This document shows positions 4,195 through 4,938 of a DNA stretch of 14,035 nucleotides, in pieces (position 1 is the first letter of the stretch; each line of letters starts with the position of its first letter). The notes below the pieces were generated by a model. That model saw nothing but the letters and a program-made list of their open reading frames with translations, was not told where the DNA came from and did not search any database. The DNA is from a virus. A program made the position numbers and the translations under genes. The DNA is taken from positions 1 through 14,035 of the IMG/VR virus record IMGVR_UViG_3300005935_005627; one strand, 5' to 3'.

Positions 4195-4266
4195 ATGACT
4201 TAGATTAATCACAAATTAATTATCATTACCAGGAGAGATCTACACCCTGGTTACCAAGCTGTTCAT
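4195..4266 (+). other. Diverged duplicate of the PTH2 N-terminus (M-T-[TAG]-I-N-H-K-L-I-I-I-T-R-R-D-L-H-P-G-Y-Q). It is in frame with, and continuous into, the HNH endonuclease ORF. It is either an N-terminal extension of the endonuclease read through TAG, or a remnant 5' fragment of a PTH2 allele left by endonuclease invasion.
   Basis: Translating 4195 onward in the HNH frame gives MT*INHKLIIITRRDLHPGYQAVHKNHEYINKLF-MSMDHKK... Compare the PTH2 start at 4942: MI*IKKLYVITRRDLKPGVQMLQSAH. Both begin ATG-NNN-TAG-ATT-AA. Nucleotide differences are largely synonymous (AGG/CGA for Arg, CTA/TTA for Leu, CCT/CCA for Pro). Confidence 0.5.
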
Positions 4267-4296
4267 AAAAATCATGAATATATAAATAAATTATTC

Positions 4297-4938
4297 ATGT
4301 CAATGGATCATAAAAAAATTTATCATTCAATCATAGAAAAAGCTAAATCTGAAAATAGAATAAAGGGTTCAGCTATTTACTATGAAAATCACCATATTTT
4401 ACCAAAATCTCTTAAAGGAGATAATTCTAATGAAAATTTAGTTTTATTAACAGCTAAAGAACATTATATTTGTCACAAATTGTTAATGTTCATTTATGAT
4501 GCTGATTTAATGAAATTAGCGTTTGCTAGAATGGTTCATTCTAATAACAATAATGAATATATTAAATCTGGAAGAGATTATGAATATGCTAGATTATTAG
4601 TAAGTGGTGTATTAAAGAAAAAATATATAGGTGCAGGTAATCCAATGTATGGAAAAAAACATTCTGAAGAAACTAAACAGAAAATAGGTAAAAAGAGTAA
4701 AGGTAGAAAACACACCATCAATTCGAAGGAAAAAATGAGTTCTAAAAAAATTGGAGATAAAAATCCAATGTACGGAACAAAGGGATATTTTTTTGGAGTT
4801 ACACGATCAGAATCAACTAAGAAAAAAATAAGTGAAAGTCTTAAAAAAGTAAATAAAAAGGAATGTATGTATTGTCATAAATTCATATCTCCTTCTAATT
4901 ATAGTAGACACACAAATAAATGTAAATTAAAAAATTAA
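4297..4938 (+). CDS. HNH homing endonuclease (Mob-like): HNH nuclease domain, NUMOD3 repeats and a C-terminal zinc finger. Possibly begins at 4195 if TAG is decoded.
   Basis: YYENHHILPKSLKGDNSNENLVLLTAKEHYICH gives the H-H...N...H motif. Repeated GxGNPMYGKKHSEETKQKIG / GDKNPMYGTKG NUMOD3-type repeats. C-terminal CMYCHKF...HTNKC. Confidence 0.85.
   Translation: MSMDHKKIYHSIIEKAKSENRIKGSAIYYENHHILPKSLKGDNSNENLVLLTAKEHYICHKLLMFIYDADLMKLAFARMVHSNNNNEYIKSGRDYEYARLLVSGVLKKKYIGAGNPMYGKKHSEETKQKIGKKSKGRKHTINSKEKMSSKKIGDKNPMYGTKGYFFGVTRSESTKKKISESLKKVNKKECMYCHKFISPSNYSRHTNKCKLKN

What the first reader, a model, noticed from the sequence alone, without database searches (positions are those of the whole stretch)
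4195..4938. A diverged second copy of the PTH2 N-terminus, with the same ATG-NNN-TAG-ATT start, is fused in frame upstream of the HNH homing endonuclease
The frame starting at 4195 gives M-T-TAG-I-N-H-K-L-I-I-I-T-R-R-D-L-H-P-G-Y-Q-A-V-H and runs without a stop into the HNH ORF (MSMDHKK at 4297). It matches the PTH2 start M-I-TAG-I-K-K-L-Y-V-I-T-R-R-D-L-K-P-G-V-Q. The nucleotide differences are mostly synonymous, so both copies are under protein-level constraint, and the ATG lies about 30 nt after a promoter-like motif. This is either the footprint of an endonuclease invading the 5' end of a PTH2 paralog, leaving a remnant exon-like piece, or an endonuclease that acquired a TAG-gated N-terminal extension. 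Either way it is independent evidence that the ATG-NNN-TAG start is functional.
Basis: seen in the sequence. Interest (0 to 1): 0.75.

Follow-up and report, generated by a model that had tools for sequence, protein, structure and literature searches.

The report
Homing endonuclease cassette splitting phage PTH2
A selfish HNH homing-endonuclease gene has inserted into the start of a phage peptidyl-tRNA-hydrolase-like gene, leaving the gene's original start fused in frame in front of the endonuclease and bringing a spare, diverged start that keeps the gene whole; both starts carry an in-frame amber (TAG) codon that this phage group appears to read through with its own suppressor tRNA.

Summary
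4195-4263 is a second copy of the PTH2 N-terminus. It is in frame with the HNH/NUMOD3 ORF (4297-4938) and has the same ATG-NNN-TAG-ATT start as the PTH2 gene at 4942.

Related metagenomic contigs settle what it is. Four endonuclease-free alleles (L024, L105, L113, L114) carry one uninterrupted PTH2 gene. Their promoter and first ~26 codons match copy 1 (88-93% nt). Their remaining codons match the window's PTH2 body (85-86%).

Five diverged endonuclease-bearing lineages (window/L001, L008, L025, L111, L116) share one architecture. The native N-terminus is cut after ..GYQAVQ(SA). It is followed by a linker, the HNH gene, and a foreign "type B" N-terminus (..QMLQ, 64% nt).

So this is a free-standing homing-endonuclease cassette that carries a replacement 5' end for the gene it interrupts. 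It is not a paralog, an intron or an intein.

The remnant is in frame with HNH in 5 of 5 lineages, once through compensating -1/+1 indels. Whether the fusion is translated is unresolved. The HNH also has its own ATG and a promoter-like motif.

The TAG is conserved across many PTH2 homologs and lies next to a tRNA(CUA). This is a new variant of a known kind, of moderate to high interest.

The parts
4085..4116 (.). Terminator-like hairpin that closes the upstream lipoprotein-like gene (3634-4080). The PTH2 transcription unit starts after it.
   Evidence: 13-pair stem followed by a T run. Similarity to the endonuclease-free alleles begins just downstream (window 4110 onward).
4155..4176 (+). Promoter-like element TTGTTATATTATGATATATAAA of the native PTH2 gene. 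It now drives copy 1 and the HNH.
   Evidence: Nearly identical in L008, L024 and L105. The motif [GA]A[AT]ATATAAA lies 17-18 nt before the PTH2 ATG in all lineages.
4195..4263 (+). Copy 1: the displaced native ('type A') 5' end of PTH2, ATG ACT TAG + 20 codons (MT#INHKLIIITRRDLHPGYQAV). It is truncated at the insertion site and in frame with the HNH.
   Evidence: 93% nt identical to the start of the uninterrupted PTH2 in L024. Only 1 synonymous and 0 non-synonymous codon differences from TAG to GCT.
4201..4203 (+). In-frame TAG (codon 3) of the native PTH2 start.
   Evidence: The same TAG occurs in endonuclease-free alleles and in distant homologs.
4264..4296 (+). Left end of the cassette ('linker'), AT-rich and open in the copy 1 frame. 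It contains the promoter-like motif ATATATAAA at 4278-4286, 10-16 nt before the HNH ATG.
   Evidence: The DNA motif is conserved in 4 of 5 lineages. In L111 it is read in a different frame, so it is a DNA-level signal.
4297..4938 (+). HNH + NUMOD3 homing endonuclease gene. The first ATG is 4297; the ATG conserved in relatives is 4303; the stop TAA is at 4936-4938.
   Evidence: Pfam NUMOD3 and HNH_4, and PHROG 655 'homing endonuclease'. Catalytic HH/N/H and C-terminal Cys/His residues are invariant in 5 lineages. The gene is absent from L024, L105 and L113.
4942..5010 (+). Copy 2: the cassette-borne replacement ('type B') 5' end of PTH2, ATG ATA TAG + 20 codons (MI#IKKLYVITRRDLKPGVQMLQ).
   Evidence: Only 64% nt identical to the native N-terminus, against 85% for the gene body. 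The break falls at CAA|TCT (5010/5011). Type B occurs in all 5 endonuclease-bearing lineages.
4948..4950 (+). In-frame TAG (codon 3) of the replacement start.
5011..5283 (+). Body of the PTH2-like gene (native type), from SAHAAVDFQHQ.. to the TGA stop.
   Evidence: Pfam PF01981, 42.5 bits against a cut-off of 23. 85% nt identical to the L024 body.
5991..6064 (+). tRNA with anticodon CUA (amber suppressor), the likely reader of both TAG codons.
   Evidence: ARAGORN and Rfam tRNA at 59 bits. A tRNA(CUA) lies within 6 kb of PTH2 (under 1.5 kb in most) in 11 of the 15 IMG/VR PTH2 loci, and in L001.

Best explanation
Window 4264-5010 is a mobile cassette inserted inside the 5' coding region of a single phage PTH2-like gene. 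It was inserted after the codons for ..P-G-Y-Q-A-V-Q(-S-A).

The cassette has three parts:
- a short AT-rich leader with a promoter-like motif;
- a free-standing HNH/NUMOD3 homing-endonuclease gene;
- a diverged ('type B') copy of the first ~23 PTH2 codons, with its own ATG-NNN-TAG start, placed directly after the endonuclease stop.

The PTH2 gene is therefore rebuilt downstream of the insert. The original ('type A') start, 4195-4263, is left behind as a remnant that happens to be, or is kept, in frame with the endonuclease.

Shown by comparison: the insertion itself; the identity of copy 1 as the native start; the foreign origin of copy 2; the presence/absence polymorphism; and the recurrence of the architecture in five diverged lineages.

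Inferred (1): the HNH nicks or cuts endonuclease-free type A alleles at or near ..CAA GCT GTT CAA TCT GC... The cassette then spreads by recombinational repair, using copy 1 with its promoter as the left homology arm and the PTH2 body as the right arm.

Inferred (2): the type B sequence (YQAVQ changed to QQMLQ or VQMLQ at the site) makes carriers immune to their own enzyme.

Inferred (3): the first composite arose when a break in a type A gene was repaired from a type B donor that had the HNH just upstream of its PTH2. The left end would have been joined illegitimately.

Both TAG codons are most likely read as sense, probably Gln, by the phage tRNA(CUA) at 5991-6064. PTH2 would then be made only when suppression is active, and so would the HNH if it is translated from 4195.
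For: (1) Endonuclease-free alleles exist. L024, L105 and L113 and L114/L115 carry one continuous PTH2 gene. The gene starts ATG ACC TAG ATT AAT CA(C/A).. or MKNYADTGSGAPM#IGSK...

(2) BLAST of L024, L105 and L113 against the window shows the duplication directly. Their 5' ~96 nt match both 4110-4265 (89-92%) and 4920-5293 (77-81%), and nothing matches 4266-4919.

(3) Identity steps sharply at the junction in two independent lineage pairs. For L024 against the window: upstream 86%, N-terminus against copy 1 93%, against copy 2 64%, body 85%. For L114 against L111: 88%, 64% and 86%.

(4) The same architecture appears in five lineages whose HNH proteins are only 50-65% identical: window/L001, L008, L025, L111 and L116/117.

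(5) The HNH looks active. The HH, N and H residues and the CxxCH..H..C residues are invariant, and it matches NUMOD3 and PHROG 655.

(6) Type A (GYQAVQS.HAA) is the family consensus in distant homologs. All endonuclease-bearing alleles have type B as copy 2.

(7) Copy 1 in each carrier matches a local endonuclease-free allele with synonymous changes only: 1/0, 3/0, 5/0 and 7/0 synonymous/non-synonymous codon differences. Meanwhile its junction-proximal codons have decayed differently in each lineage (QAVH, QAIP, QAVQLVQ, QAVQAA). This is what co-conversion during repeated homing predicts.

(8) The HNH stop abuts or overlaps the PTH2 ATG: a 3-nt gap in the window, an ATGA overlap in L111 and L116, and an overlap in L025. 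This indicates a streamlined, translationally coupled cassette.

(9) Reading of the TAG is supported by its conservation at a fixed distance before the K-L of strand 1 in more than 15 lineages, after 1-13 variable codons. It is also supported by the lack of any consistent alternative start codon, the neighbouring tRNA(CUA), and the mini-ORF conserved across its TAG.
Against: - No cleavage, homing or expression data exist. The target site and the immunity of type B are inferred only from where the junction lies.
- Endonuclease-free type B alleles with their own promoter exist (L106/107, L109, L118). Type B is therefore also a free-living allele class, and the direction of the founding event cannot be proven.
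- L111 differs from its endonuclease-free type B relative L109 by an insert that includes copy 1. The cassette can thus also look like 'copy 1 + HNH' inserted upstream of a type B gene.
- The amino acid inserted at TAG is not established. The tRNA(CUA) is not recognisably Gln-like, and the 'Q' in database proteins is only code-15 gene calling.
- Some genes in related contigs appear to end in TAG. Suppression must then be partial or timed.
Confidence: 0.8

Rival explanations
1. Copy 1 is now a working part of the endonuclease gene. The HNH is translated mainly from the old PTH2 start at 4195 as a 247-residue, amber-gated fusion. The open frame is kept by selection, either to time endonuclease production or to relay ribosomes through the HNH to the coupled PTH2 start. 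This adds to the insertion history rather than contradicting it.
For: - The frame from the native ATG into the HNH is open and in phase in 5 of 5 lineages.
- Relative to L008, L111 has -1 nt before and +1 nt after the conserved linker motif. The motif is therefore read in another frame, but the overall frame is restored (lengths counted).
- The other indel among lineages is 9 nt.
- The native promoter and initiation region are intact upstream.
- HNH stop and PTH2 start overlap, which fits a ribosome relay.
- A precedent in idea: in-frame recoded stops were proposed to delay production of a phage intron endonuclease (bioRxiv 10.1101/2021.08.26.457843).
Against: - The HNH has its own conserved ATG, preceded by the same promoter-like motif that precedes other genes, including the GIY-YIG endonuclease at 12770.
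- The linker peptide is not conserved; only its openness is.
- An open 11-17-codon linker has a chance probability of 0.3-0.5 per lineage, and the lineages share ancestry. The statistical support is therefore weak, roughly 0.05-0.15 overall.
- The amino-acid conservation of copy 1 is explained by descent from intact alleles.
- L116 copy 1 carries 3-4 non-synonymous changes.
Confidence: 0.45
2. An in-situ tandem duplication of the PTH2 5' end (a decaying paralogous fragment), with the endonuclease later landing between the repeats.
For: Two direct repeats of the same gene segment flank the HNH.
Against: - Copy 2, not copy 1, is the divergent one: 64% against 93% identity to the endonuclease-free allele.
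- Copy 2 belongs to a distinct allele class, type B, found in other phages.
- No genome shows the duplication without the HNH.
- The divergence includes many synonymous changes typical of two long-separated functional genes.
Confidence: 0.04
3. The 4264-5010 segment is a self-splicing intron (or the HNH is an intein), so copy 1 is a true exon 1 that is joined to 5011 onward.
For: Joining copy 1 to 5011 would recreate a native-type PTH2. Endonucleases fused in frame to an upstream exon are common in organellar group I introns (PMC7487136).
Against: - No intron or other RNA family was found at E <= 1 in 3900-6200, apart from the tRNA.
- Only about 33 + 3 nt of the insert is non-coding, which leaves no room for a ribozyme core.
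- The end of copy 1 has decayed differently in each lineage, including a 9-nt deletion in the window.
- Copy 2 keeps a complete, conserved start of its own.
- The HNH ends in a stop codon and has no intein splicing blocks.
Confidence: 0.02
4. The TAGs are true stops. ATG-NNN-TAG would be a two-codon minigene (like the lambda bar minigenes, recalled from memory), and PTH2 and the HNH would start at downstream codons. Copy 1 would then be only an untranslated leader.
For: - ATG ATA TAG resembles the bar minigene AUG-AUA-stop, and the downstream gene is a peptidyl-tRNA hydrolase homolog. This is a resemblance from memory, not tested.
- Some genes in related contigs end in TAG.
Against: - The codon after the TAG is ATT, ACT, GTA, AGA, GCT, AAC and others, so most are not start codons. 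No consistent ATG, GTG or TTG lies before the conserved first strand.
- The TAG keeps a fixed, in-frame position relative to the domain, while the pre-TAG segment varies from 1 to 13 codons.
- A tRNA(CUA) is adjacent in most lineages.
- The mini-ORF 5484-5522 shows 4-5 synonymous and 0 non-synonymous changes after its TAG.
- Single-base variants TCG (L108) and TAC (L014) replace the TAG with sense codons.
Confidence: 0.05

Closest known systems
Free-standing homing endonucleases of T4-like phages (Seg and Mob proteins; 'intronless homing')
   Same: An HNH or GIY-YIG enzyme with NUMOD-type DNA-binding modules and no intron or intein. It is present or absent among related phages, targets a conserved and functionally important gene, and spreads with co-conversion of flanking DNA (review PMC2988022).
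   Different: Those genes normally sit between genes and cut at a distance. Here the endonuclease gene lies inside the coding region, is in frame with the displaced gene start, and carries a spare 5' gene segment that restores the interrupted gene.
Free-standing endonuclease genes in fungal mitochondria with partial duplications of the neighbouring gene (atp6, cox1, atp9 N-terminus). The Allomyces atp6 hybrid gene of Paquin et al. 1994 is recalled from memory.
   Same: A mobile endonuclease ORF is associated with a duplicated, diverged piece of the host gene. One copy stays functional and the other is a remnant, and the ORF is often fused to host coding sequence (PMC7487136; partial exon duplication in PMC7902536).
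   Different: Those cases are in organelles, not phages. They usually involve LAGLIDADG or GIY-YIG enzymes and the 3' end of the gene. No stop-codon suppression is involved.
Intron-encoded endonuclease ORFs fused in frame to the upstream exon
   Same: The host gene's start codon and initiation signals are borrowed for the endonuclease (PMC7487136 introduction).
   Different: There is no intron here. The host gene is restored by a DNA-level spare part, not by RNA splicing.
mobE in nrdA of Aeromonas phage Aeh1 (genes-in-pieces), and the mobA-gene 60 bypass cassette of T4
   Same: A phage endonuclease is inserted within an essential coding sequence together with a feature that keeps the gene functional, and the whole moves as a cassette (Friedrich 2007 as cited in PMC2988022; bioRxiv 10.1101/2022.08.31.505936).
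   Different: Function is kept there by assembly of two polypeptides or by ribosomal bypass. Here it is kept by a duplicated replacement 5' end with its own start.
Stop-codon-recoded phages (TAG read as Gln, 'code 15') with suppressor tRNAs
   Same: A phage-encoded tRNA(CUA) and in-frame TAG in conserved genes. In-frame stops have been proposed as timers, including for an intron endonuclease (10.1101/2021.08.26.457843; PMC9523058).
   Different: In the sequence seen here, TAG occurs only at the extreme 5' end of PTH2 (both copies) and in one mini-ORF. Other genes are TAG-free, and some relatives seem to use TAG as a stop. No paper found links PTH2 to suppressor tRNAs.

Membership tests
HNH homing endonuclease (free-standing, NUMOD3-containing) | HNH catalytic motif (His-His ... 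Asn ... His) | tested here: met
   Pfam HNH_4 scores 24.4 bits against a cut-off of 22. ENHHI(L/I)P, N45, H54 and H58 are invariant in five lineages. A weak profile match to the HNH domains of solved structures.
HNH homing endonuclease (free-standing, NUMOD3-containing) | Modular DNA-binding region (NUMOD3 repeats) | tested here: met
   Pfam NUMOD3, E = 4.8e-17, three stretches. PHROG 655 'homing endonuclease', E = 2e-41.
HNH homing endonuclease (free-standing, NUMOD3-containing) | Presence/absence polymorphism at one defined site in otherwise homologous genomes | tested here: met
   Carriers: window, L008, L025, L111, L116. Empty sites: L024, L105, L113, L114.
HNH homing endonuclease (free-standing, NUMOD3-containing) | Site-specific cleavage or nicking of the empty allele, and biased inheritance | not testable with these tools
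   Needs the enzyme and mixed infections. Only the position of the junction is known.
Group I/II intron-encoded endonuclease | A ribozyme core flanking or containing the ORF | tested here: not met
   No intron family at E <= 1 in 3900-6200. About 36 nt of non-coding sequence in the insert.
Intein-associated endonuclease | An in-frame insertion with N- and C-terminal splicing blocks and no stop codon | tested here: not met
   The HNH ORF ends in TAA at 4936-4938 and the host gene restarts with its own ATG. No intein domain in Pfam.
PTH2 (peptidyl-tRNA hydrolase 2) family | Match to the family profile over the whole domain | tested here: met
   PF01981 scores 42.5 bits against a cut-off of 23, covering profile positions 2-113 of 115. 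It falls below the NCBIfam equivalog cut-offs (32 against 126 bits). It is thus a divergent family member, and its enzymatic activity is untested.
TAG-reassigned ('code 15') phage | A phage-encoded tRNA with anticodon CUA | tested here: met
TAG-reassigned ('code 15') phage | In-frame TAG inside conserved coding sequence | tested here: met
   PTH2 starts and the mini-ORF with post-TAG synonymous-only change.
TAG-reassigned ('code 15') phage | TAG no longer used as a terminator; TAG scattered through many (late) genes | tested here: inconclusive
   None of the 24 window genes ends in TAG. Genes in L001, L106, L109 and L111 appear to end in TAG, and no other in-frame TAG occurs in the window. Late genes were not available.
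TAG-reassigned ('code 15') phage | TAG decoded as glutamine | tested here: inconclusive
   The tRNA(CUA) is not recognisably Gln-like by similarity. The 'Q' in database proteins comes from code-15 gene calling.
Endonuclease cassette with a duplicated host-gene segment (organellar type) | A truncated, diverged duplicate of the host gene next to the endonuclease ORF, with an intact host gene retained | tested here: met

The most novel reading that the evidence does not exclude
The endonuclease has wired itself into a suppressor-tRNA-dependent translational gate.

Ribosomes load at the displaced PTH2 start (4195) and can continue only if the phage tRNA(CUA) reads TAG-4201. They then make the HNH as a fusion and are handed by stop/start coupling to the replacement PTH2 start. 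There a second TAG (4948) gates PTH2 again.

The open frame would be maintained so that the interrupted gene keeps its native, amber-controlled expression.

This would be the first homing endonuclease whose production is controlled by stop-codon suppression through a captured host-gene start. It would sit inside a previously undescribed module: PTH2, tRNA(CUA) and a TAG-containing leader mini-ORF. That module may sense or control amber suppression during infection.
Probability: 0.3. Interest if true: 0.85.

Novelty: new variant of a known kind. Interest (0 to 1): 0.62.

Why it matters
The locus gives a natural series for one phage homing endonuclease: an empty site, an occupied site, a putatively resistant allele class (type B), and an apparent hybrid loss product (L120).

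The insertion junction points directly to a testable target sequence in the most conserved part of a PTH2-like gene.

It shows a way for a free-standing endonuclease to live inside a coding sequence without an intron or intein, by carrying a recoded spare 5' end. I found this described for organelles but not for phages.

It also exposes a conserved, apparently unreported association: PTH2-like genes that begin with an early in-frame TAG and sit beside an amber-suppressor tRNA. This makes the timing and function of partial TAG read-through in phages experimentally approachable.

On the practical side, standard-code gene callers truncate both genes here. PTH2 is called from 5002, and the fusion is never called.

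Tried and rejected
- GenBank phage nucleotide search: no close relative, only short HNH and PTH2 matches.
- Exact DNA patterns for the copy 1 and copy 2 starts in IMG/VR: these found only L008's contig again.
- The single metagenome scan: one hit, but the decisive one (L024).
- PDB sequence search with the HNH: nothing. The profile version gave only weak HNH and I-TevI-like matches.
- Rfam: no intron, ribozyme or riboswitch.
- tRNA(CUA) amino-acid identity by similarity to other phage tRNAs: inconclusive. The nearest is an Arg tRNA at 73-81%, and the suppressors of different lineages are not alike.
- I first read 'MTQINQK..' database proteins as showing Gln at the TAG position. I rejected this after reading the DNA: the Q is a TAG translated by code-15 gene callers.
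- Search for the fused copy 1-HNH protein in the protein database: no entry covers the extension, so there were no extra lineages for the frame test.
- A further IMG/VR scan with the linker motif: unspecific AT-rich hits and no new carrier allele.
- 3' context of sense and stop TAGs: both are followed by purines, so no discrimination.
- TAGATTAA as a DNA motif: 3 copies against 1.8 expected, not significant by itself. The third copy turned out to be the mini-ORF.
- One contig (P0105) had no retrievable DNA.
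Full report
**1. What is in the window**

The window is AT-rich (31% G+C) phage DNA with tightly packed + strand genes and no Shine-Dalgarno-like sequences.

At 4195 the frame reads ATG ACT TAG ATT AAT CAC AAA TTA ATT ATC ATT ACC AGG AGA GAT CTA CAC CCT GGT TAC CAA GCT GTT CAT. This translates to MT#INHKLIIITRRDLHPGYQAVH, where # marks TAG. The frame continues without TAA or TGA into an ORF for an HNH/NUMOD3 protein (4297-4938).

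Three bases after that ORF's stop, at 4942, comes ATG ATA TAG ATT AAA AAA CTG TAT GTA ATT ACA CGA AGA GAT TTA AAG CCA GGT GTT CAA ATG TTA CAA TCT GCA CAT... This is MI#IKKLYVITRRDLKPGVQMLQSAHAA.., a PTH2-family protein. The Pfam match (PF01981, 42.5 bits) begins at the third residue after the TAG. The PTH2 gene therefore cannot start at the first conventional ATG (5002), which is where gene callers place it.

The two N-termini resemble each other far beyond chance. The BLOSUM62 score is 56, reached by 0 of 20000 shuffles, and the PTH2 start is the best non-self match to copy 1 in all six frames of the window.

Of the aligned codons, 5 differ synonymously and 9 non-synonymously.

**2. Relatives without the endonuclease**

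The window's contig family (L001-L007) and an IMG/VR relative L008 have the same arrangement.

A degenerate DNA pattern for the copy 1 peptide found a 1.5-kb metagenomic contig, L024. It has the same promoter region followed by ATG ACC TAG ATT AAT CAC AAA TTA ATT ATC ATT ACC AGG CGA GAT CTA CAC CCT GGT TAC CAA GCT GTT CAA TCT GCC CAT GCC GGG ATA GAC TTT CAA CAC CAA TAC CCA GAC... This is one uninterrupted PTH2 gene. Its first 24 codons are copy 1, and the rest is the window's PTH2 body.

L105, L113 and L114/L115 are further uninterrupted alleles.

BLAST of L024, L105 and L113 against the window shows their 5' ~96 nt matching twice: 4110-4265 at 89-92% and 4920-5293 at 77-81%. Nothing matches 4266-4919.

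Identity steps sharply at CAA|TCT (window 5010/5011). For L024 against the window the values are: upstream 86%, N-terminus against copy 1 93%, against copy 2 64%, body 85%.

**3. The architecture recurs**

Five lineages have the same layout, and their HNH proteins are only 50-65% identical: window/L001, L008, L025, L111 and L116/117. The layout, in order, is:
- the native promoter;
- the native start with its TAG;
- the native 'type A' N-terminus (..KL[IV][IV]ITRR[DN]L.PGYQA..), cut shortly after QAVQ;
- an AT-rich linker;
- the HNH;
- a 'type B' N-terminus (M.#..KLY[IV]ITRR.L..G.QMLQ);
- the PTH2 body.

A second, independent pair confirms the picture. L111 copy 1 (MKNYTDGGTGTPM#IGSKLIVITRRDLSPGYQAVQAA) matches the uninterrupted L114 gene (MKNYADTGSGAPM#IGSKLIVITRRDLSPGYQAVQSAHAAIEF..) at 88%. 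L111 copy 2 matches it at 64% and the body at 86%.

Type A (GYQAVQS.HAA) is also the consensus of distant PTH2 homologs. Type A is therefore ancestral, and type B is the variant that travels with the endonuclease.

Type B also exists without an adjacent HNH (L106/107, L109, L118). One allele, L120, has a hybrid N-terminus (MKDVFG#INSKLIVITRRDLSPGQQMIQ). That is what recombination between the two direct repeats, with loss of the endonuclease, would leave.

**4. What it is**

This is a free-standing homing-endonuclease cassette inserted inside a coding sequence. It keeps its host gene alive by carrying a replacement 5' end.

- The HNH looks active. The HH, N and H residues and a C-terminal CxxCH..H..C cluster are invariant over all five lineages.
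- There is no intron. Rfam finds nothing in 3900-6200 except the tRNA, and the insert has only about 36 non-coding bases.
- It is not an intein. The HNH ORF ends in a stop, and PTH2 restarts with its own ATG.
- It is not an in-situ duplication. The functional copy is the foreign one.

**5. How it most likely works (inferred)**

The junction lies in the codons for the most conserved motif of the family (GYQAVQSAHAA). Homing endonucleases typically target such sites (PMC2988022).

I infer that the enzyme cuts or nicks type A alleles at or near ..CAA GCT GTT CAA TCT GC... The change to ..CAA ATG TTA CAA.. in type B would then protect carriers.

A plausible origin runs as follows. A type B phage carried the HNH just upstream of its PTH2; L108 shows an HNH directly upstream of a type B gene. 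A break in a co-infecting type A gene was repaired from that donor. The right end used the homologous gene body. The left end was joined illegitimately to the sequence upstream of the HNH.

Once formed, the composite has two good homology arms, promoter plus copy 1 and the PTH2 body. It can then home precisely into any type A allele.

Two observations fit repeated homing. First, copy 1 in each carrier differs from a local empty allele only synonymously: window/L024 1 synonymous and 0 non-synonymous, L008/L024 3/0, L025/L105 5/0, L111/L114 7/0. Second, the few codons next to the junction, which would always be co-converted from the donor, have decayed differently. They read QAVH with a 9-nt deletion in the window, QAIP in L025, QAVQLVQ in L008 and QAVQAA in L111.

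This also means that the amino-acid conservation of copy 1 does not by itself show that copy 1 is translated today.

**6. Is the fusion used?**

The frame from the native ATG into the HNH is open and in phase in all five lineages.

Relative to L008, L111 has one base fewer before and one more after the conserved linker motif (C)ATGAATATATA. The motif is therefore read in a different frame, yet the overall phase is restored. The other indel is 9 nt. This hints at selection for an open frame.

The support is modest, however. An 11-17-codon AT-rich stretch is open by chance with probability 0.3-0.5, and the lineages share ancestry.

Against a need for the fusion, the HNH has its own conserved ATG (4303). 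It is preceded by ATATATAAA (4278-4286). The same motif lies 17-18 nt before every PTH2 start and 5-16 nt before other genes, including the GIY-YIG endonuclease at 12770. It is thus probably a promoter or initiation signal carried by the cassette.

The HNH stop abuts or overlaps the replacement PTH2 ATG: a 3-nt gap in the window, ATGA in L111 and L116, and an overlap in L025. A ribosome relay from the old start through the HNH to the new start is therefore an attractive reason to keep the frame open. I rate translation of the fusion at about even odds.

**7. The TAG codons**

An in-frame TAG lies a fixed few codons before the K-L of the first strand in most PTH2 homologs examined. These include all carrier and empty alleles and distant IMG/VR homologs at 48-56% identity. 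The TAG follows 1-13 variable codons after an ATG.

- The codon after the TAG is usually not a start codon, and no consistent alternative start exists.
- Single-base sense variants occur: TCG in L108 and TAC in L014.
- A tRNA with anticodon CUA lies at 5991-6064. One lies within 6 kb of PTH2, under 1.5 kb in most, in 11 of the 15 IMG/VR loci.
- A 12-codon mini-ORF at 5484-5522 (MKAHW#INPRPP*) is conserved in seven lineages. After its TAG there are only synonymous differences: 5/0 for window against L008 and 4/0 for L024 against L120.

Together these make read-through of TAG the best reading.

Which amino acid is inserted is not shown. The tRNA is not recognisably Gln-like, and the 'Q' in database proteins is an artefact of code-15 gene calling.

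Within the window, TAG is in frame only in the two PTH2 starts and the mini-ORF. No window gene ends in TAG, but some genes in related contigs seem to. This looks like regulated suppression rather than full reassignment.

I found no paper linking PTH2 with suppressor tRNAs or recoding. PTH2 in large phages has been noted only as a putative ribosome-rescue factor (PMC7824862).

**8. Comparison with known systems and verdict**

The element meets the sequence-level criteria of a free-standing HNH homing endonuclease. Cleavage and biased inheritance cannot be tested here.

The closest phage systems are listed below.
- T4 Seg/Mob 'intronless homing': those endonuclease genes sit between genes.
- mobE in nrdA: the gene is split into two polypeptides.
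- mobA-gene 60: function is rescued by ribosomal bypass.

The closest organellar systems are listed below.
- Fungal mitochondrial endonuclease ORFs with partial duplications of atp6, cox1 or atp9.
- Intron ORFs fused in frame to the upstream exon (PMC7487136, PMC7902536).

I did not find a phage endonuclease that carries a recoded replacement 5' end and sits in frame behind an amber-gated host start. I therefore class it as a new variant of a known kind.

The 'paralog', 'mostly synonymous' and 'independent evidence' parts need correction.

Noticed in passing
window 5484-5522 (also L008 3299-3337, L025 4360-4398, L024, L105, L116 3203-3241, L120 3339-3377): A conserved 12-codon mini-ORF with an in-frame TAG: ATG AAA GCA CAT TGG TAG ATT AAT CCC CGA CCC CCA TAA = MKAHW#INPRPP*. 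The codons after the TAG differ only synonymously between lineages (5/0 and 4/0). It lies between the PTH2 operon and the hairpins, the 105-aa gene and the tRNA(CUA). It could be a leader peptide that senses amber suppression.
   Followed up: partly
window 5991-6064; L008-L022: A tRNA(CUA) gene lies next to the PTH2-like gene in most lineages, even very distant ones. The suppressor tRNAs themselves are not similar to each other. PTH2, an amber suppressor and an early TAG look like a conserved module that I did not find described.
   Followed up: partly
window 5527-5630: Two tandem copies of a perfect-looking hairpin (AACATAGACATGATGTCTATGTT / GAACATAGACATCATGTTTATGTTC), each followed by CAATCAAAAAT. 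Relatives have different hairpin sequences of the same shape at this place (L025 GCTTGGACACAATGTCCAAGC; L120 GCATGGACACTTTGTCCATGC). They may be an operator or an RNA structure.
   Followed up: no
window 4168-4176, 4278-4286, 12756-12764; many loci: The motif [GA]A[AT]ATATAAA sits 5-18 nt upstream of start codons of PTH2, the HNH, the GIY-YIG endonuclease and other genes. It is probably a phage promoter giving very short leaders, and it resembles the T4 late promoter TATAAATA (from memory).
   Followed up: partly
window 12770-13468: A second homing-endonuclease-type gene (GIY-YIG + NUMOD3 by the Pfam marks on L001 18474-19172), with the same upstream motif as the HNH. L008 has a homolog at about 8148.
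   Followed up: no
window 165-2582: An 805-aa protein with major-vault-protein domains (MVP_shoulder 3.5e-27, Vault_3) and a weak SPFH/Band 7 match. Homologs lie upstream of PTH2 in L106, L109 and L120 as well. This is unusual content for a phage.
   Followed up: no
L109 3557-4318 and L111 3400-4182: Two adjacent ORFs (115 and about 123-127 aa) are in the same frame and separated only by one TAG (..LK TAG ATG AAG GAA..). This may be one gene with programmed amber read-through giving two isoforms.
   Followed up: no
L120 2420-2800: An endonuclease-free PTH2 with a hybrid N-terminus (type A start, type B QQMIQ end). This is what loss of the endonuclease by recombination between the two direct repeats would leave.
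   Followed up: partly
L108 576-908; L014 about 5980-6010: PTH2 genes in which the early TAG is replaced by a sense codon one base away (TCG Ser in L108, TAC Tyr in L014). L108 also has an HNH directly upstream.
   Followed up: no
L009/L010 249-620, L011 2706-3065, L013 3811-4162: Phage-encoded tmRNA genes lie a few kb from PTH2 and the suppressor tRNA in distant relatives. This suggests a translation-rescue and recoding gene neighbourhood.
   Followed up: no
window 7911-8285 against L001 13615-13989: The 124-aa window ORF is called as two genes (45 + 68 aa) in L001. The window is therefore not identical to that contig, indicating micro-diversity or a sequencing difference.
   Followed up: no
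window 2641-4080: Three consecutive small genes start MKK(I/V)L.. with hydrophobic signal-like N-termini, two of them with a Cys (lipoprotein-like). Together with the lack of Shine-Dalgarno sequences, this suggests a Bacteroidota host.
   Followed up: no
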